Shown: positions 12,001 to 27,000 of the stretch, piece after piece
Layout of the letters: each line of letters opens with the position of its first letter
Numbering within the stretch: the stretch's first letter is position 1
Source: Bryobacterales bacterium
GTDB taxonomy: Bacteria > Acidobacteriota > Terriglobia > Bryobacterales > UBA6623
Assembly: GCA_963422375.2 (NCBI GenBank)
Contig: OY729428.2
Location: 1,312,001-1,376,000 of the forward strand
Direction: 5' to 3'
DNA length: 64,000 bases
Made by a program: the position numbers

Positions 12001-15000
12001 GCGGATCTACCGCGTCGGCGAGAGCGGCGTGGAGCTGTTCCGGCCGGCGGCGGCCGGTTCCATCGTGCCGAACCACCGCCTGCGGCCGCTCGCCGGCGGG
12101 AGCGAGGCGCCCGCGGTCACGCTCAACATCCGCGTCGAGTCCACGGACGGCCCCGGCGTGGAGGCGGCGATCCGGCGCCTGCGGCCGCTGCTGGCGTCCG
12201 ACGCGGCCGAGCTCGCGAAGGGCGCGGTGAGAACGGACCTGGCGCGGGCGTCGGGGCTCAGAGGGACGCTGCGTGCCTGAGGTCCAGCATGCAGACGCGC
12301 GCCAGCATACCGAGGTACTCTCGCGCCCGGGCGGTCACCGGGACGGCCGGGGAGAGGCGAAGGCTGGCGTCCTCGTGAAAGATCCGGAAGCTGAATTCCT
12401 CGGAGGAGTGGATCCTGGCGAGCGCCCGCGCCGCGTCGATGCCGTAGAGCACGCCATGGCGCGGGCTGGGGCCGAGCGTGCCGAAGAAATGCAGCGTCTC
12501 GCGCGAGTCCTCGCCCCGCTTCCGGAAGACGAGCTGCAGCCTCGCGCCGGGTCGACTGAATCCCAGCGGCTCTTGCGGATCCGAGGCGAGACGCCGCGAC
12601 TCGGCGACCGCCTCTGCGCCGCTTGCTGCCGGCCCGTTGGAAAAGGTAATCGACAGGCTTGTGAATGCCTGGCTTATCAATACCCGGAGGGGAGTCGTGG
12701 CCGGCTTGGCGCAGGTAAACCTGACGCTAAACCTGGACTCGTGTCTATCGTCGACGGTCACGTGGGCGGCACGGCCCTTGCCCTTCTCCACGACCGGGGC
12801 CCAGTCCACGAGCCGGTCGGGATCCAGCCGGCCGTACGGCTCGTGCTGGGCCGCGGCGAGCGCCGCCGCGAGGAACGCGAGGAAGAGGAGGGCGGGGATG
12901 CGAGCGAAAGGGCCGGTCACGCGGTGCGAGGCGCCTCCGGGGCGCCGGACCCAGTGTACCGCGGGGGCGACGGGGGCGACGGGGGCGATTCGTGGCGCTG
13001 ATCCCGTTCCCGGCGGGCGTGCCGGTGACGCGCTCGGACCTGGCCCTGGGGCATCCCGGCCAGATCGTGCTGCGCTCGCCCTACGGCGGCGGGACGCAGG
13101 TGCTCGGGCGCGGTCCCGGCATCTGGTCCGGACGGCTCGAGATCGGCCCGGCCGACCGCGCCTCGGTCGCGGACCGGCGCGCGGTCGAGGCCTTCCTGGC
13201 GCGGCTGCGGGGGGCCGGGAACACGTTCGAGGCGCCGTTGCACCGCCCCAGCGGCGGCTCGCTCGTCGCCGGGGCCGAGCTGTCGGTGCAGGCGGCGGGG
13301 ATCTACGCGGGCGGCCTGCGCGTGTGGGCGGACGGCTCCTCCGAGGGCCTCGTCGCGGGCGACTACGTGCGCATCGGCGAGCGCCTGTACCAGCTGGTCT
13401 CGGACCTGCGGGGCGGCCGCTGCGAGCTGGAGCCGCCGGCGACGCCCTCCGCGGGGCGGGGCATCGCCTGGGAGGGCGTCACCTGCCTGGCGCGCCGGAC
13501 CGGGCCCGAGCGCGAGCCGTGGAGGCTGGATCCCGACTTCGCCGGGCCGTGGGCGATCGAATGGGAGGAGGCGGCGTGACGGCTGAAGCCCCCTGGGTGC
13601 AGAACCTCGTCGAGCTGGCCTACCCCGGGGGCGCGACGCGGCTGTGGACGGGCCGCGGCGAGCTGAGCTTCGCCCCGGACGACGGCGACGCCGGCGGCGA
13701 CGCCCGCAAGGTAGCCTGGACCGGCGGGGCGGCCCTCGGCATCGGCGAGCACGAGCGCGTGTCGGGCCGCCCCGAGCGCCGCATGAGCCTCGCGCTCTCG
13801 GGCGTGCCGCGCGAGCGGCGGGCCCGGTTCATGCAGGATCCCGGCCCGATCGAGGTGACCGTGCGCTGGGTGTACAGCCCCGACCTCGGCGAGAGCTGGC
13901 ACGAGGTGCCCGGGGCGCGGTACCGGGGCCGCCTGTCGGGCGGGTCGCTGCAGGACGGGACGCTCGCGGTCGAGCTGGAGACCCTGCTCGGCGACGTGGA
14001 GCGGGGCCGGCCGCGGCGCTGGTCGCACGAGGACCAGCAGCGGCGCTCCCCGGCCCGCGAGGTCGCGGCCGGGGACGGGGGCGCGAAGCGGACCGTGCCG
14101 GCCGACCTGGGCCTCGAGCACATGCGGGCGCTGGCCCGCCAGGGAGTGGAGACGGCGTGGCCGCCCTAGCCGGCCCAGCCGGGCGCGAGCGGGCGCGGCG
14201 GGTCCGCGACGCCCTCGAGTCCGAGGGCCTCGGGCCGTCCGCCTGGCGCGAGCGCGACTGCGTGACGCTGCTGCGAGCGGTCGTGCGGGCCCTGTCGGGC
14301 CGCGAGCCCTCGCTGGCCCTGCCGGCCTGGACCGACGGCCTCGGCGAGCGCGAGGCGATCCTGCGAGCTCCCCGCGAGCACGGCTCGCTGCGGGACGGCT
14401 GGGCCGCGGTGCTGGACGCCGAGCCGCTGCTGCGGCGCGTCCCGCGGGGATGCCTGCCGCGGCCGGGCATGATCGCCCTGGCGGCGGTCGTCCTCGGCCC
14501 CGGGGGCGAGCGCCTGGCGGGCGCCTCGCCGGGCGTGATCGGCCCGGGCTGCGAGTGCTGGGTCCGGACGCCGCGGGGCATCGAGCGGGCGCACCCGGTC
14601 ACGGACCTGTGGGAGGTCCGCTGAGATGCCGTTCGGCTGGCTGGCCGGCGTGATCGCCGGCAAGATTCTCGGCTCCGCCGCCGCCGCCACCAAGGCGTTC
14701 GCCATCCTGAAGGGCGTGATCGCCGCGGGCCTGGCGGCGGGCGCGTCCTACGGAGCGGGCCTGGTGATGCGCCTGGTGGCGCGCGACGCCCGCCCCGGCG
14801 GCACGCGGATGGAGGCCCTCGCGGGGGCCAAGTCGACCGTCGCGAGCGAGGTGGTCGCGGCCCGCTGGGTGCTGGGCCGGGCCCGCGTGCCGGGCGTGCT
14901 GGCCTACTTCCGGGCCGAGGGCCGCGCGGCGCACCTGGGGCTGGTCCTGTCCGAGGGCGCCTGCGAGGGCATCGACGGCAAGTGCTGGATCGACGGGCGC

Positions 15001-24000: not shown

Positions 24001-27000
24001 CAAGGGCGCCAAGGGGTACAAGGGCGCCAAGGGCGCCAAGGGCGCCAGGGGCCGGAAGGGCCCCAAGGGGTACAAGGGCGCCAAGGGGTACAAGGGGTAT
24101 AAGGGATACAAGGGGAGCAAGGGCGAGGCCGGCTACTATTCCGGCAGCCCGTTCAACCCCGAGGACTACCGGGGGGCGCCCGGGCCGCCCGGCTCCAAGG
24201 GCGCCAAGGGCGCTTCCGGAGGAGGACGCAACTATGGCCGGACGACGCTACCGCATGCTCGCTGACGGCGACCCGGACAAGCTCTCGGCGGAGAGCTTCC
24301 GCGCTTTCGGCGAGCTGGCCGCGCGGCGCGGGAGGGCCCCCGTCACCCTCTGGGTGCTCGAGTCCGACGAGGAGCTCTCCGCCGAGGGCGCCCGCCCGCT
24401 GCGCCCGCTGCCGGACGGCACCTGGGAGGCTCCCGGCGGCCGCCGCTGGCGCCGCTTGACCGGGACCCCCGGCGGCGCGGAGGGCCCCCGCGCGTGAACG
24501 GCCCCTGGAGCCTGGTGCCCGGCGCCGTCGACGACTGCGCGGGCCTGCTGCGCGCGCTGCTCGACAGCACGGAGCTGCGCCCCGGCACCGTCAACGGCGA
24601 CGGCTCCGTGCGCCCCGACATCCGCCGCTCCGCCGTCGGCTGGCCCGACCCCGCCCGCCACGCCGCCGAGCTCGCCCGCGTGCGCCGGGCCGTTCTCGCG
24701 GCCAACCGCGAGCTGTGGGGCTTCGATCTCGACGGCGGCGAGGAGTGGCAGCTCACGCACTACACCCATCTCGACGCGGGCGTCTACGAGCGGCACATGG
24801 ACTGCTCGCTGGAGGGCGGGCGGCCGCGCTGCCGCAAGGTCTCCGTCTGCGTCAACCTGTCCGACCCGCGCGACTACGAGGGCGGCTCGCTGCGGCTGGG
24901 GGCCGTGGGCCAGCCCGACCGCGCGGCGCTGCGCCAGCGCGGCGCCGCGCTGGTCTTCCCCAGCTTCGTCGAGCATCGCGTCACGCCCTTGCTGGCCGGG
25001 GAGCGCTACTCCCTCGTCGCCTGGTTCTCCGGGCCGGCCTGGCGCTAGCCCGCGCCGCCGCGCCTACTGGTATAATGGAGAGATGCTGGCTCCGGCGTCA
25101 GCATCGTGATCTGGGCGCCGGGGCTGGCAGCTGCAGCAGCACCCGCTGCCACCCTCCCCTGGGTAGAGGGGCCGTGCACGGCCTAACTCCCCGAGGATAG
25201 GGGTGGCAGCGGACCCTAGGCACGGTAGCGCGATCCGTGCGAGGGCCCTGAAGCCCCGCCGCACGGTACGCTGGGAGACGTCGAGCGGAACCCTTTGCGA
25301 GAGCGTTGCCGGGCGGGCCCGCGAGGGCCCGCCCTATTCGTATCGGGAGCGGGAGCGGGGCATGGGAACGCGGACGCTGCACTTCCTGGCAGCCTTCGAT
25401 CAGGTCTGCGACAGGGAGCTGCTTCCCATGAGGCAGGCCGAGGAATGTGGCGCCCGGAGAACAATCGACGAGGCGGCGGCAGTGGCGCTCGGTATCGCTC
25501 CCGATGCAATCGCGGACTGGAGAAGGCGTTTGGCGTTGGAGCCGACGATCACCAATGTGCGCGTCAGGGAACCCGGGAGCGAAGAGGCATCCTGAGCATG
25601 GCCCTGAACGCGAAGCACACGGATTTCCAAGGGGCTTGAGCATGTCTGTCGAATACTCGATGAGAATTTCCCGGCTTACCGTCGACAAGTTGGGGGTCAA
25701 GCTCTACGACAAGGTGTCCGCCGTCATCGCCGAACTCATCGCGAACGCCTACGATGCCGATGCCACACATGTGACGGTTCGAGCGCCGATGGGGCAGTTT
25801 CTGGCGACTCGAGCCGGAGGCACCGTGGCGGACAAGGGCTTCAGCATCGAAGTCGACGACGACGGCATCGGCATGACGCCTCAGCAGGTACAGGACTTCT
25901 TTCTCGTCGTCGGTTCCGAGCGGCGGAACGACACCAGCCGAGGCGACCGTTCGCCCCGCTACAGACGTAAGGTCATGGGCCGCAAGGGCGTCGGAAAGCT
26001 GGCACCCTTCGGTATCTGCAAGACCATCGAGGTGATCAGTGCCGGCGGAGATTTCATCGACGGCGGGGGTGCGACCCCGGGCGCCACGGGCTACCTCACG
26101 TCCCACATCGTCCTCTACTACGATGGCATCACGGCGCTCGATGATGAGCCCGACGAACGCTACAAGCCGGTCGTGGGCGACCGCGATGAGTCTTACTCCC
26201 CGAAGTCGGGGACTCGAATCATCCTGAAGGACTTCAGCCACCGGAGGGTCCCCGAGCTCAATGTCCTCGGCCGCCAGCTCGCCCAACGCTTTGGTATCCC
26301 GTCGACGGACTGGAATGTCCAGCTTCTGGACAACACGGAATCCACTCCGTCACCGGTGACGGTCGGCACCTTCGACATTCAGACGATGCCGAACACGAAG
26401 CTCACGTTTGGGCAGAATGGAACTGTACTCAACCCCGACGGTGCTCCTGCGATGGACCAGTCGGCCGGATTCGAACATGAGGGCATATTTCGCCCCATCA
26501 CAGGCTGGATGGCGTACTCGAAGGCTCCCTACAAGGACGAGCTCATGGCTGGGGTGAGAATCTACTGCCGCGGCAAGATCGCCGCCCAGACATCCATCTT
26601 CAACCAGCGGGCCGGCTTTACCGGCGAGCACAACATCCGCTCCTATCTCGTCGGCGAGCTCCACGCCGACTGGCTCGACGAAGAAGAAGACCTCATCCAA
26701 ACCGATCGACGGGACATCCTCTGGTCGGACGAACTCGCTGCCGCCTTCCAAGCTTGGGGCCAGAGAATCGTCAAGAAGATCGGCACCCTGTCGCGGGAGC
26801 CCATGCGGAGAGCGACTTTGGATCTGTTCCTCGAGACGGGCGATGTCGACGCTCGCATCCAGAACGCCTATCCGACCGAAGAGCAACAAGACATTCGCAA
26901 AAGCGCGAAAGAGGTCGCCGAATCCTTCGGTCGCACGATCAGCCGAGGGGATGTCGAAGATGCCAGCGTCGTGAACGAACTGGTCGATCTGAGCATCACC

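What a model noticed while it worked through the whole genome (the two positions that open the first line are those of the whole stretch)
14626..25048. Prophage carries a one-protein collagen lysine hydroxylation and glycosylation pathway beside Gly-X-Lys collagen fibres [...]
A 42-kb high-GC HK97-like prophage is present in three copies (C2 1308-1350 kb; C1 end/start; C3 end/start; the early regions partly differ). Directly after a 1704-aa tail fibre with 96 Gly-X-Y triplets it encodes a 642-aa enzyme (g02652, C2 1331748-1333676) that joins three domains of the animal collagen modification pathway: a GT25/ColGalT-like domain (res 50-172), an LH3-type glucosyltransferase domain (249-450) and a lysyl hydroxylase domain (478-637) with the Fe/2OG residues kept. 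It is followed by three short collagen-like proteins (g02653-55), two of which have Lys at the Y position in 19 and 28 triplets (the X-Lys-Gly substrate motif), and by a second small 2OG oxygenase (g02657). I [...]
Evidence so far: pfam.tsv has Glyco_transf_25 and GT_PLOD on g02652, and the Swiss-Prot best hits are PLOD1/PLOD (32% over the C-terminal 177 aa). phmmer against the PDB gives human LH3 at E 1e-21 in two stretches (GT 38-236; LH 541-711), ColGalT1 at E 6e-5 (res 50-172), and mimivirus R699 and L230. The alignment keeps LH3's DxxD of the GT site (LDGYD), the HxD...H iron triad (LHED ... HPH) and the 2OG arginine (GTR). Gly-X-Y counts are by script. Full-length homologues (25% id, 90% cover) occur in 11 cultured marine phage records (Synechococcus S-CAM9, S-PRM1, S-8S5x; Roseobacter CRP-6), labelled hypothetical or 2OG oxygenase. 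In the two records I looked at they lie next to tail fibres with Gly-X-Lys-rich c [...]
(Added by a program. Inside this text positions count along the whole contig: contig position 1,312,001 is position 1 of the stretch shown here. "Call 12" and the like, gene names such as g00115 and contig names such as C1 are that model's own, and its searches are not shown. The text may have been shortened before it was handed on; [...] marks where a part breaks off. The agent that wrote the report below was given it as the finding of a first reader that could run no searches.)

Follow-up and report, generated by a model that had tools for sequence, protein, structure and literature searches.

The report
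Prophage enzyme that hydroxylates and glycosylates collagen fibres
A bacterial virus integrated in this genome carries, among its tail-fibre genes, one enzyme that combines the three activities animals use to hydroxylate collagen lysines and attach two sugars, beside lysine-rich collagen-like fibre proteins that are its probable targets.

Summary
Window 14626-25048 is the tail-fibre end of a 42-kb prophage present three times in the genome. Its genes run in this order: a J-like fibre with collagen repeats, a 642-aa enzyme, three short collagen-like proteins, a small conserved protein, and a small 2OG oxygenase.

The enzyme has three domains:
- a GT25/ColGalT1-type domain;
- an LH3/R699-type glucosyltransferase domain;
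- a lysyl-hydroxylase domain.

Every assayed catalytic residue of human ColGalT1 and LH3 that falls in the aligned stretches is kept, and these positions are invariant or nearly so in 31 relatives. With an alignment the whole protein folds well (pLDDT 88), the hydroxylase domain included.

All 47 lysines of two short collagens lie at the Y position. Lysine is enriched there although this high-GC phage otherwise avoids it. The host genome has no other collagen-like gene.

The same gene order recurs in 16 of 18 related loci, nearly all in Acidobacteriota MAGs. The enzyme also sits beside Gly-X-Lys fibres in 6 of 7 distinct marine phages.

The small oxygenase is prolyl-4-hydroxylase-like, so the module resembles a complete collagen maturation kit.

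Nothing is shown biochemically, and the sugars cannot be read from sequence. I found no paper on this chemistry in phages. This scan has noted similar modules in marine phages on other DNA.

The parts
14626..19740 (+). Central tail fibre (lambda J-like N-terminal part, repeats, two collagen-like stretches at residues 1188-1334 and 1397-1538, C-terminal domain); candidate substrate
   Evidence: PHROG phrog_31 'central tail fiber J' and several tail-fibre families. Pfam Collagen E 4.4e-34. 100 Gly-X-Y triplets, 14 with Lys at Y. The collagen part has 15 K against 8 R; the rest has 23 K against 122 R.
19748..20422 (+). Enzyme domain 1 (residues 1-225): GT25 / ColGalT1 GalT-C-like glycosyltransferase
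   Evidence: Pfam PF01755, 29.4 bits against a cut-off of 24. ColGalT1 E 3.5e-6 for this domain alone. Foldseek ColGalT1 9evj E 5e-12. E93-D94-D95 aligns with ColGalT1 E435-x-D437, and D168 with D522. D94, D95 and D168 are invariant in 31 relatives and E93 is kept in at least 90%.
20429..21112 (+). Enzyme domain 2 (residues 228-455): LH3 / R699-type (GT_PLOD) glycosyltransferase
   Evidence: Pfam PF25342 E 6.4e-12. Foldseek 6wfv TM 0.78, R699 E 1.3e-13. D297/D300/H444 align with LH3 D112/D115/H253. D297 is invariant; D300 and H444 are kept in at least 90% of 31 relatives.
21155..21676 (+). Enzyme domain 3 (residues 470-642): lysyl hydroxylase (Fe/2OG) domain
   Evidence: LH3 domain E 1.3e-12. 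Foldseek L230 LH 6ax6 TM 0.74, rmsd 1.9 over 172 columns. Y562/H573/D575/H622/R632 align with LH3 Y656/H667/D669/H719/R729. H573, D575, H622 and R632 are invariant. A homodimer is predicted.
21692..22534 (+). col1: 280-aa collagen-like protein, acidic, Pro-rich at Y (23), only 2 Lys
   Evidence: Pfam Collagen E 4.4e-23; composition.
22543..23409 (+). col2: 288-aa collagen-like protein, 19 Lys, all at Y
   Evidence: Frame check GC3 0.95. Pfam Collagen E 3.2e-29. Counts.
23378..24265 (+). col3: 295-aa collagen-like protein, 28 Lys, all at Y; G-A-K and G-Y-K runs
   Evidence: Pfam Collagen E 1.2e-31. Counts. The number of GAK triplets differs between the prophage copies.
24234..24497 (+). Small conserved protein (87 aa), function unknown
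   Evidence: No Pfam, PHROG or Atlas hit. tblastn homologues lie at the same place in 8 related loci.
24494..25048 (+). Prolyl-4-hydroxylase-like 2OG/Fe oxygenase (184 aa)
   Evidence: Pfam PF13640 E 4.2e-12. H101-x-D103, H161 and R171 are invariant in 9 sequences. AF2 pLDDT 87.8. Best Foldseek matches are P. putida P4H 4iw3 (E 5e-11), the chlorella-virus collagen P4H 5c5t and PHD2. A homologue follows the collagen genes in 13 of 18 genome loci and lies next to the enzyme in S-CAM9 and S-PRM1.

Best explanation
This is a phage-encoded kit for maturing collagen-like fibres. I propose the following steps during lytic growth, in the host cytoplasm.

1. The C-terminal Fe(II)/2-oxoglutarate domain of the 642-aa enzyme hydroxylates lysines at the Y position of Gly-X-Lys triplets. 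The targets are the phage's own unfolded collagen-like chains: col2, col3 and the collagen parts of the J-like fibre.
2. The N-terminal GT25 domain, an inverting transferase of ColGalT1/L230 type, puts a first hexose on the hydroxylysine.
3. The middle LH3/R699-type domain, a retaining transferase, adds a second hexose, probably glucose.
4. The neighbouring small oxygenase probably hydroxylates prolines at Y.
5. The chains then fold into triple helices that become side or terminal fibres of the virion.

Shown: the domain identities, the intact active sites, the conserved gene order, and the placement and enrichment of lysine. Inferred: the substrates, the order of the steps, the sugars, and that col1-3 are virion parts.
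For: Domains and active sites:
- Three domains are found by Pfam, by PDB sequence search and by fold: AF2 pLDDT 88.3, pTM 0.76.
- Foldseek gives LH3 full length E 1.5e-25, 6wfv TM 0.78, L230 LH TM 0.74 with rmsd 1.9, ColGalT1 E 5e-12 and R699 E 1.3e-13.
- Residues whose mutation abolishes activity in the human LH3/ColGalT1 complex align with identical residues here. These are E435/D437, D112/D115/H253 and Y656/H667/D669/H719; the proposed catalytic base D522 aligns likewise.
- In 31 relatives of 37-55% identity most of these positions are invariant, and E93, D300 and H444 are kept in at least 90%; Tyr is the majority residue at 562.
- The LH domain is predicted to form the symmetric dimer that LH3 and L230 need: ipSAE 0.52, best control 0.01. 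That mark was reached by 20 of 30 solved homo-pairs and 1 of 23 single chains. The runs agree in 100% of contacts and pLDDT is at least 89. Because like dimers have been solved, this pass may be from memory.

Context and substrates:
- The enzyme sits inside the late fibre operon, on the same strand, 7 and 15 nt from its neighbours.
- The only collagen-like ORFs in the 6-Mb genome are those of the three prophage copies.
- K/(K+R) is 0.11 (110 of 979) in the non-collagen prophage proteins. It is 0.39 in col2, 0.46 in col3 and 15 K to 8 R in the fibre's collagen part, and all 47 Lys of col2 and col3 are at Y.

Conservation:
- 16 of 18 genome-contig loci have collagen-like ORFs next to the enzyme, with Lys almost only at Y. 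They usually keep the order J-fibre, enzyme, two or three short collagens, small protein, P4H-like oxygenase.
- 2 of 2 full-length viral-contig loci also have collagen-like ORFs nearby.
- 6 of 7 distinct phages among the 11 records have a fibre with 55-98 triplets, 22-26 Lys at Y and none at X, one to three genes upstream of the enzyme.
Against: - No biochemical or proteomic data exist for any member, and no RNA run holds the region.
- Lys and Arg prefer the Y position in collagen triple helices generally (established knowledge, recalled). Y-only lysine is therefore not in itself proof of modification.
- col1 has only 2 Lys. In one relative (L008) the only collagen ORF found has 2 Lys at Y.
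- Stand-alone LH-like genes in six low-GC marine viral contigs have no collagen-like ORF in the flanks fetched. The hydroxylase fold alone therefore does not imply a collagen substrate.
- The GT25 Pfam match covers only residues 52-101, and the 2OG Pfam match is below its gathering score.
- The host shows no galE match above the curated cut-off: best 121.7 bits against 262.3. A galactose first step is therefore doubtful.
- Whether col1-3 are in the virion is unknown.
Confidence: 0.7

Rival explanations
1. Partial pathway. The hydroxylase and only one of the two glycosyltransferase domains are active on collagen, giving a mono-hexosyl hydroxylysine as shown in vitro for mimivirus L230. The other GT domain is structural, like the AC domain of LH3 or GalT-N of ColGalT1, or acts on another acceptor.
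For: L230 alone makes Glc-Hyl. LH3 and ColGalT1 each carry a GT-A-like domain that is not the catalytic one. The Pfam GT25 match here is short, residues 52-101.
Against: Both GT domains keep their metal-binding motifs, and the GT25 domain keeps its candidate base. These residues are invariant or kept in at least 90% of 31 relatives. A purely structural domain would be free to lose them.
Confidence: 0.15
2. Lysogenic conversion or another target. The enzyme modifies a host molecule instead (GT25 is mainly an LPS/LOS family), or a non-collagen phage protein. The collagen genes are then neighbours only because fibre modules are mosaics.
For: Pfam names GT25 an LPS biosynthesis family. L230 was first annotated as an LPS enzyme. 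LH-like genes occur in phage contigs without collagen.
Against: The enzyme lies in the late operon between fibre genes, not near the integrase or repressor. Its adjacency to Gly-X-Lys proteins is kept in T4-like cyanophages, a roseophage and siphovirus-like prophages at about 25% identity. The closest matches of the hydroxylase domain are collagen lysyl hydroxylases, not other oxygenases.
Confidence: 0.07
3. The collagen-like ORFs are artefacts of very GC-rich, GGC-rich DNA. The enzyme is then a relic with no present substrate.
For: The region is 80-84% GC, and several long off-frame ORFs also read as Gly-X-Y.
Against: The chosen frames have GC3 of 0.90-0.95. Pfam Collagen gives E 1e-23 to 1e-34. 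Homologous trios occur in relatives of 60-70% GC. AAG lysine codons are concentrated at Y against the compositional trend. Repeat-number changes between the copies stay in frame.
Confidence: 0.03

Closest known systems
Acanthamoeba polyphaga mimivirus L230 (bifunctional collagen lysyl hydroxylase / hydroxylysyl glucosyltransferase; LH domain PDB 6ax6, 9nev)
   Same: A viral enzyme with an N-terminal GT25-like transferase carrying an EDD motif and a C-terminal lysyl hydroxylase. It acts on the virus's own Gly-X-Lys collagens. The LH fold matches at TM 0.74, rmsd 1.9. The dimer hot spot L873 lies 14 residues before the 2OG arginine R887. I618, which is in the predicted interface, has the same offset from R632.
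   Different: L230 has 895 aa and comes from a giant virus of amoebae. Here the protein has 642 aa, comes from a temperate phage of a bacterium, and has a recognisable LH3/R699-type transferase domain between the two. Sequence match to the L230 LH domain is only E 3e-3. I could not fetch full-length L230, so its middle region was not compared.
Human LH3/PLOD3 (PDB 6fxk, 6wfv, 8zgc)
   Same: A glucosyltransferase domain and a lysyl hydroxylase domain sit in one chain. The DxxD + His Mn site and the HxD...H + Arg Fe/2OG site are kept. It is the best full-length structural match, E 1.5e-25.
   Different: There is no accessory (AC) domain: only about 15 residues separate the two domains. An extra GT25 domain sits at the N-terminus. 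The protein has no obvious signal peptide (my reading of the N-terminus; no predictor was run) and so presumably works in the cytoplasm. Identity is 16-17% over the full-length structural alignment. In the tree the LH domain falls outside the animal clade.
Human ColGalT1/GLT25D1 (PDB 9evj, 8zgc chain U)
   Same: The N-terminal domain aligns with the catalytic GalT-C domain. The Mn-binding E-x-D and the candidate base D522 are kept.
   Different: It lacks the non-catalytic GalT-N domain that builds the LH3-ColGalT1 tetramer. Here the three activities are joined covalently instead. The sugar donor is unknown.
Mimivirus R699 (collagen glucosyltransferase, PDB 9dyt)
   Same: The middle domain matches the R699 catalytic domain: E 1.8e-4 by sequence and E 1.3e-13 by fold. 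It is a retaining-type GGT.
   Different: R699 is a separate protein with its own accessory domain and works as an antiparallel dimer.
Collagen-like phage tail fibres and bacterial collagen-like proteins (Scl, BclA)
   Same: These are Gly-X-Y proteins of prokaryotic viruses and bacteria. BclA is glycosylated.
   Different: A 2022 review, read in passages, states that prokaryotic collagens as a rule have no lysine hydroxylation or collagen-type glycosylation, and names mimivirus as the viral exception.

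Membership tests
Collagen lysyl hydroxylase (LH/PLOD) catalytic domain | Double-stranded beta-helix fold closest to solved LH domains | tested here: met
   Foldseek gives L230 LH 6ax6 TM(target) 0.74, rmsd 1.9 over 172 columns. Prolyl hydroxylases score lower, TM 0.53-0.63.
Collagen lysyl hydroxylase (LH/PLOD) catalytic domain | Fe(II) triad HxD...H, the 2OG-binding Arg and the Tyr of LH3 (Y656, H667, D669, H719, R729) | tested here: met
   The equivalents are Y562, H573, D575, H622 and R632 in the alignment, read against the residues listed. H573, D575, H622 and R632 are invariant in 31 relatives.
Collagen lysyl hydroxylase (LH/PLOD) catalytic domain | Tail-to-tail homodimer through the LH domain, needed for activity | tested here: inconclusive
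   The model supports a symmetric dimer: ipSAE 0.52 against a best control of 0.01. The mark was reached by 20 of 30 solved homo-pairs and 1 of 23 single chains, with 100% contact agreement and pLDDT at least 89. Like dimers are solved, so the pass may reflect likeness only.
Collagen lysyl hydroxylase (LH/PLOD) catalytic domain | Hydroxylation of Lys in X-Lys-Gly | not testable with these tools
   Only context bears on this: 47 of 47 Lys of col2 and col3 are at Y.
LH3/PLOD full architecture (GT-AC-LH) | Accessory (AC) domain between the GT and LH domains | tested here: not met
   GT_PLOD ends near residue 455 and the LH domain starts near 470. The protein is therefore not an LH3 orthologue in architecture.
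GT_PLOD (LH3 / R699 glucosyltransferase domain, PF25342) | Pfam score over the gathering cut-off; Mn site DxxD + His (LH3 D112, D115, H253) | tested here: met
   45.6 bits against a cut-off of 27. The site is D297, D300 and H444. D297 is invariant and D300 and H444 are kept in at least 90%. Fold match to 6wfv is TM 0.78.
GT_PLOD (LH3 / R699 glucosyltransferase domain, PF25342) | Transfer of glucose to a hexosyl-hydroxylysine | not testable with these tools
   Donor and acceptor specificity cannot be read from the sequence.
GT25 / ColGalT1 GalT-C | Pfam score over the cut-off; Mn-binding E-x-D (E435, D437) and the candidate base D522 | tested here: met
   29.4 bits against a cut-off of 24, although the match covers only residues 52-101. 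E93/D95 and D168 occupy the aligned positions. D94, D95 and D168 are invariant and E93 is kept in at least 90%. R354, G377 and T571 of ColGalT1 lie outside the aligned stretch and were not checked.
GT25 / ColGalT1 GalT-C | Galactose as the transferred sugar | tested here: inconclusive
   The GT25-like domain of L230 transfers glucose. The host's best galE match is 121.7 bits, below the cut-off of 262.3.
Collagen triple-helix repeat proteins (PF01391) | Long uninterrupted Gly-X-Y runs scoring over the Pfam cut-off | tested here: met
   E 4e-23 to 4e-34 for the fibre, col1, col2 and col3. The longest runs hold 28-49 triplets. Triple-helix formation itself was not tested.
Prolyl 4-hydroxylase-type 2OG oxygenase (PF13640), for the 184-aa neighbour | Pfam over the cut-off, HxD...H + Arg, and fold closest to P4Hs | tested here: met
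   47.3 bits against a cut-off of 27. H101, D103, H161 and R171 are invariant. All of the best Foldseek matches are prolyl hydroxylases. The substrate was not tested.

The most novel reading that the evidence does not exclude
Tailed phages of bacteria carry a complete, self-contained collagen maturation system that works in a bacterial cytoplasm: prolyl hydroxylase, lysyl hydroxylase and two hydroxylysine glycosyltransferases. The last three are on one 642-aa chain. The phage/prokaryote radiation of these domains could then be the pool from which the giant-virus and metazoan PLOD/ColGalT enzymes were drawn. The three tandem, differently charged short collagens (net charge -5, +32 and +44) may assemble as a heterotrimer, as animal collagens do.
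Probability: 0.2. Interest if true: 0.9.

Novelty: new variant of a known kind. Interest (0 to 1): 0.72.

Why it matters
Hydroxylysine-linked glycosylation of collagen is treated as a hallmark of animals, with mimivirus as the one viral exception. Finding the whole enzyme set in temperate soil phages and in marine phages would move this chemistry into the bacterial world. The enzymes are fused into a single soluble chain and sit beside their probable substrates.

It would also give phage biology a new kind of fibre decoration, which might affect fibre stability, host recognition or protection from proteases.

There is a practical side. The mimivirus R699 paper notes that glycosylated recombinant collagen still cannot be made in bacteria, in part because the human transferases are hard to express there. 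A bacterial-native three-in-one enzyme is an obvious candidate tool.

The claim is directly testable by co-expression and mass spectrometry.

Tried and rejected
- RNA evidence: no RNA holder was listed for 19748-25048, so I did not lay reads.
- A six-frame search of the own genome with PF25342 found nothing, although hmmscan matches the protein. The tool warns that nothing rang anywhere, so I treat this as a miss.
- The protein Atlas gave no usable hit for the 87-aa protein.
- Names for the 850-990-aa GT25+GT_PLOD+OGFOD2-like+2OG proteins: none of the clusters looked up carried an informative name, and only the animal PLODs did. Whether these are giant-virus L230-like proteins stays open.
- Luther et al. 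2011 (PMC3243560) is not held. I took the L230 facts from passages of the Chem Rev review.
- I did not send a heterotrimer test of col1-3 to complex prediction. Controls with non-collagen partners could not tell a hetero-trimer from a homo-trimer.
- The idea that the ORF 22557-23384 is a gene was rejected.
- Earlier notes by place: none exist for this genome.
- I did not establish the host's identity, and nothing in the argument depends on it.
- The bioRxiv version of the R699 paper and the supplements of the papers cited were not opened.

Full report
**What is there**

The first 38 kb of the window belong to a prophage of 75-84% GC in a genome of 67% GC. PHROG matches give these genes on the + strand: portal, head protease, major head protein, head-tail adaptor, tape measure, distal tail protein and a J-like central fibre. 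Further on lie a repressor on the - strand and, on the + strand, a RecE-like exonuclease, a ParB-like protein and an integrase at 36250-37992.

The finding covers the end of the late operon:
- fibre, 14626-19740 (1704 aa);
- enzyme, 19748-21676 (642 aa);
- col1, 21692-22534;
- col2, 22543-23409;
- col3, 23378-24265;
- an 87-aa protein, 24234-24497;
- a 184-aa 2OG oxygenase, 24494-25048.

The gaps between these genes are 7-15 nt, or the genes overlap. The listed ORF 22557-23384 is an off-frame reading of col2. The frame starting at 22543 has GC3 of 0.95 and reads as collagen with 19 Lys.

**Copies**

The enzyme is present three times at 100% identity, on C1, C2 and C3. The whole element spans C2 1307816-1350163. 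It is 99-99.9% identical between copies in the late region and 91-98% in the early region, so these are separate insertions and not an assembly duplicate.

The copies differ by in-frame repeat changes. The fibre on C3 has one extra 26-aa unit, and col3 has two fewer Gly-Ala-Lys triplets on C1 and C3.

**The enzyme**

Pfam finds three families:
- Glyco_transf_25, residues 52-101, 29.4 bits against a cut-off of 24;
- GT_PLOD, residues 249-449, 45.6 bits against 27;
- 2OG-FeII_Oxy_3, residues 578-639, 24.8 bits, just under its cut-off of 27.

Against solved structures the best match is human LH3 (E 9.5e-22). It matches in two stretches: query 250-450 to the LH3 GT domain, and 478-637 to the LH domain (E 1.3e-12). 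ColGalT1 (residues 50-172), mimivirus R699 and the L230 LH domain follow. The N-terminal 230 residues alone match ColGalT1 at E 3.5e-6.

With an alignment of 31 of the 46 homologues found, AlphaFold2 gives mean pLDDT 88.3 and pTM 0.76, with no segment under 50.

Foldseek results:

| Target | Result |
|---|---|
| LH3, full length | E 1.5e-25 |
| LH3 GT domain (6wfv) | TM 0.78 |
| R699 | E 1.3e-13 |
| L230 LH domain (6ax6) | TM 0.74, rmsd 1.9 |
| ColGalT1 | E 5e-12 |

**Active sites**

I mapped the residues that the cryo-EM and mutagenesis study of the human LH3/ColGalT1 complex reports as essential or proposes as catalytic. I read sections 9 and 10 of PMC11897130 for this and placed the residues on the HMMER alignments. 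The chain-to-UniProt offsets are 27 for ColGalT1 and 23 for LH3, worked out from the printed alignments.

| Human residue | Role | Residue here |
|---|---|---|
| ColGalT1 E435-x-D437 | Mn site | E93-D94-D95 |
| ColGalT1 D522 | candidate base | D168 |
| LH3 D112, D115, H253 | Mn site | D297, D300, H444 |
| LH3 Y656, H667, D669, H719 | LH site | Y562, H573, D575, H622 |
| LH3 R729 | 2OG arginine (role recalled) | R632 |

In the 31-sequence alignment D94, D95, D168, D297, H573, D575, H622 and R632 are invariant. E93, D300 and H444 are kept in at least 90%. ColGalT1 R354, G377 and T571 and LH3 V44 fall outside the aligned stretches and were not checked.

The protein has no accessory domain between GT_PLOD and LH, and no GalT-N domain.

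The LH domain (465-642, two copies) is predicted to form a symmetric dimer:
- The score is 0.52 against a best control of 0.01.
- That mark was reached by 20 of 30 solved homo-pairs and 1 of 23 single chains.
- The runs agree in 100% of contacts, and pLDDT is at least 89.
- The interface includes I618, which lies 14 residues before the 2OG arginine. L230 L873, whose mutation prevents dimerisation, has the same offset from R887.
- Such dimers are solved, so this pass shows likeness rather than independent proof.

**Candidate substrates**

Counts:

| Protein | Gly-X-Y triplets | Lys | Lys at Y |
|---|---|---|---|
| col2 | 72 | 19 | 19 |
| col3 | 74 | 28 | 28 |
| fibre | 100 | 38 | 14 |
| col1 | 68 | 2 | 2 |

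col1 has 23 Pro at Y.

In this very GC-rich phage, lysine is otherwise avoided. K/(K+R) is 110 of 979 (0.11) in 21 non-collagen proteins, and the enzyme itself has 2 K against 64 R. The ratio is 0.39 in col2 and 0.46 in col3. The fibre's collagen part has 15 K to 8 R, against 23 K to 122 R in the rest of the fibre. Arginine could supply charge, so keeping AAG codons at Y points to a need for lysine itself.

A scan of all six frames of the 6-Mb genome finds collagen-like ORFs (20 or more triplets) only in the three prophage copies. The host therefore offers no other collagen substrate.

**The companion oxygenase**

The 184-aa protein matches PF13640 (E 4.2e-12). It keeps H101-x-D103, H161 and R171 in all 9 aligned sequences and folds at pLDDT 87.8.

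Its nearest solved structures are all prolyl 4-hydroxylases:
- Pseudomonas putida P4H 4iw3, E 5e-11;
- the chlorella-virus collagen P4H 5c5t;
- PHD2;
- algal P4H.

Y-position prolines are frequent in all four collagen proteins (15-24 each). A collagen prolyl hydroxylase role is therefore the natural guess, but it remains an inference.

**Relatives**

- The word-indexed search found 46 proteins including the query. Of these, 43 carry both PF25342 and PF01755, and the three shorter ones carry only PF25342.
- The exhaustive representative search found 569 proteins at E of 1e-3 or better, 207 at 1e-10 and 65 at 1e-30. They include 417-aa GT_PLOD+LH forms, roughly 200-aa LH-only forms and 850-990-aa forms.
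- In genome contigs there are 18 loci. Seventeen lie in MAGs labelled Bryobacterales (15), Terriglobia (1) or Acidobacteriota (1), and one lies in a Binatota MAG.
- Sixteen of the 18 have collagen-like ORFs next to the enzyme, with Lys almost only at Y (X = K in 0-4 triplets). The two exceptions are a 5.9-kb contig that begins inside the gene and a 32-residue fragment.
- By tblastn the J-like fibre precedes the enzyme in 14 genome loci. The P4H-like oxygenase follows in 13, and the 87-aa protein in 8.
- In viral contigs, 2 of 2 full-length loci have collagen-like ORFs nearby. Six loci matching only part or all of the LH domain, in contigs of 33-40% GC, have none in the flanks fetched.
- Eleven phage records come from 7 distinct phages. 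S-CAM9, S-PRM1, S-8S53, S-8S55, S-8S56 and roseophage CRP-6 have a fibre with 55-98 triplets, 22-26 Lys at Y and none at X, one to three genes upstream. In the five cyanophages, two small 2OG oxygenases lie in between. By tblastn the one next to the enzyme in S-CAM9 and S-PRM1 is a homologue of the 184-aa protein.
- The seventh phage is an 8.3-kb fragment with no collagen ORF.
- The pairing of enzyme and Gly-X-Lys fibre thus survives at about 25% identity across myovirus, roseophage and prophage backgrounds.

**Evolution**

I built a maximum-likelihood tree of 46 LH domains. The rows were chosen by me from the hits; P0162, P0164, P0169, P0183 and P0184 dropped out because their match was too short.

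The window falls in a well-supported clade of its close relatives (100/100). The one animal PLOD kept (Lingula PLOD1) groups with two roughly 950-aa metagenomic proteins in a separate long-branch clade (100/100). The tree is unrooted and holds a single animal row. It shows only that the prophage domain is not a recent capture from animals.

**Comparison with what is known**

The chemistry is established in animals, where LH1-3, ColGalT1/2 and LH3 build Glc-Gal-Hyl. It is also established in mimivirus. There L230 hydroxylates lysine and adds glucose, and R699 adds a second glucose to Gal-Hyl and possibly to Glc-Hyl. These points come from passages of PMC9614988, PMC9546862 and PMC12279948.

The protein here resembles L230 with an R699-type catalytic domain inserted and the accessory domain removed. 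The sugars may therefore follow either the animal pattern or the mimivirus pattern. The absence of a galE match above the curated cut-off in the host slightly favours glucose, but it is not decisive.

**Literature**

Six full-text searches found no paper that describes lysine hydroxylation or hydroxylysine glycosylation in a bacteriophage:
- lysyl hydroxylase + bacteriophage + collagen-like;
- hydroxylysine + phage + tail fiber + glycosylation;
- lysyl hydroxylase + cyanophage;
- procollagen-lysine + prophage;
- collagen-like + tail fiber + cyanophage + oxygenase;
- hydroxylysine + bacteriophage + collagen-like.

Iyer et al. 2010 (passages read) predicted hydroxylation and sulfation of bacterial collagen-like proteins by other dioxygenase families, and noted dioxygenase arrays in cyanophages. 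They did not describe this enzyme. A 2022 review (passages read) states that prokaryotic collagens as a rule lack these modifications. Subscription-only papers are outside the library.

Earlier notes of this scan describe comparable split or fused modules in marine phages on other DNA. I did not test those notes.

**Verdict**

It is a new variant of a known kind of system: the known chemistry, in a new three-domain architecture and a new class of carrier, a temperate phage of bacteria.

Noticed in passing
window 25447-28838: A low-GC island (about 60-65% GC against 75-84% around it) sits directly after the fibre module. It encodes a 763-aa GHKL-type ATPase (HATPase_c_3; phrog_6203) and a C-5 cytosine DNA methyltransferase. 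It lies within the block aligned in all three copies. It looks like a moron, possibly a restriction or defence pair.
   Followed up: partly
window 1-38163 against the whole genome: The prophage is 8-17 points richer in GC than its host genome (75-84% against 67%). Its closest relatives lie in MAGs of 60-70% GC. The composition is unexplained.
   Followed up: no
window 18179-18284 and 10810-10891 (C2 1330179-1330284, 1322810-1322891): Contigs C1 and C3 begin and end inside their prophage copies, one in the fibre's collagen repeats and the other in the tape-measure gene. The assembly or its linearisation probably broke at these repeats.
   Followed up: no
window 19050-19240 (fibre) and 23870-23960 (col3), approximate coordinates that I converted from residue numbers, against copies C1 and C3: In-frame repeat-number differences exist between the three otherwise near-identical copies. 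There is a 26-aa unit with two Gly-Ala-Lys triplets in the fibre, and two Gly-Ala-Lys triplets in col3.
   Followed up: yes
proteins P0094, P0111, P0162, P0164, P0169, P0194, P0196: A class of 850-990-aa metagenomic proteins joins GT25 and GT_PLOD to an OGFOD2-like region, and most also score for a 2OG oxygenase family (two of the seven lack that Pfam hit). This amounts to a GT25 domain fused to a whole PLOD-like chain. Two of them group with animal PLOD in the LH tree. Their sources carry no names. They may be giant-virus L230-like proteins.
   Followed up: partly
L027-L032 (viral contigs, 33-40% GC): Stand-alone lysyl-hydroxylase-like genes occur in low-GC marine viral contigs with no collagen-like ORF in the flanks fetched. 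Their substrate is unknown.
   Followed up: no
window 38155-39105: Right at the prophage's right end lies an ORF that matches only the C-terminal part of AMP-binding enzymes (profile positions 214-384, plus AMP-binding_C). The phage may have integrated into, or may carry the 3' end of, an acyl-CoA ligase gene.
   Followed up: no
window 23378-24265 (col3): Tyr occupies the X position 8 times, in Gly-Tyr-Lys runs next to Gly-Ala-Lys runs. A Tyr-plus-Lys repeat recalls adhesive proteins (recalled, not tested).
   Followed up: no
window 21692-24265: The three short collagens have similar length (280, 288 and 295 aa) but opposite charge (net -5, +32 and +44). By my reading of the translations, without a formal alignment, their N-termini share a Trp followed by a Phe-Gly-(Ala)-Pro motif. 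Several relatives also carry trios of short collagen genes. A heterotrimer is conceivable but was not tested.
   Followed up: no
C2 2438739-2441184 and C1 585154-586950: Further stretches 90-97% identical to parts of the prophage lie elsewhere in the genome: a 2.5-kb stretch of the head-to-tail region and a tape-measure stretch. They suggest remnants of related prophages.
   Followed up: no
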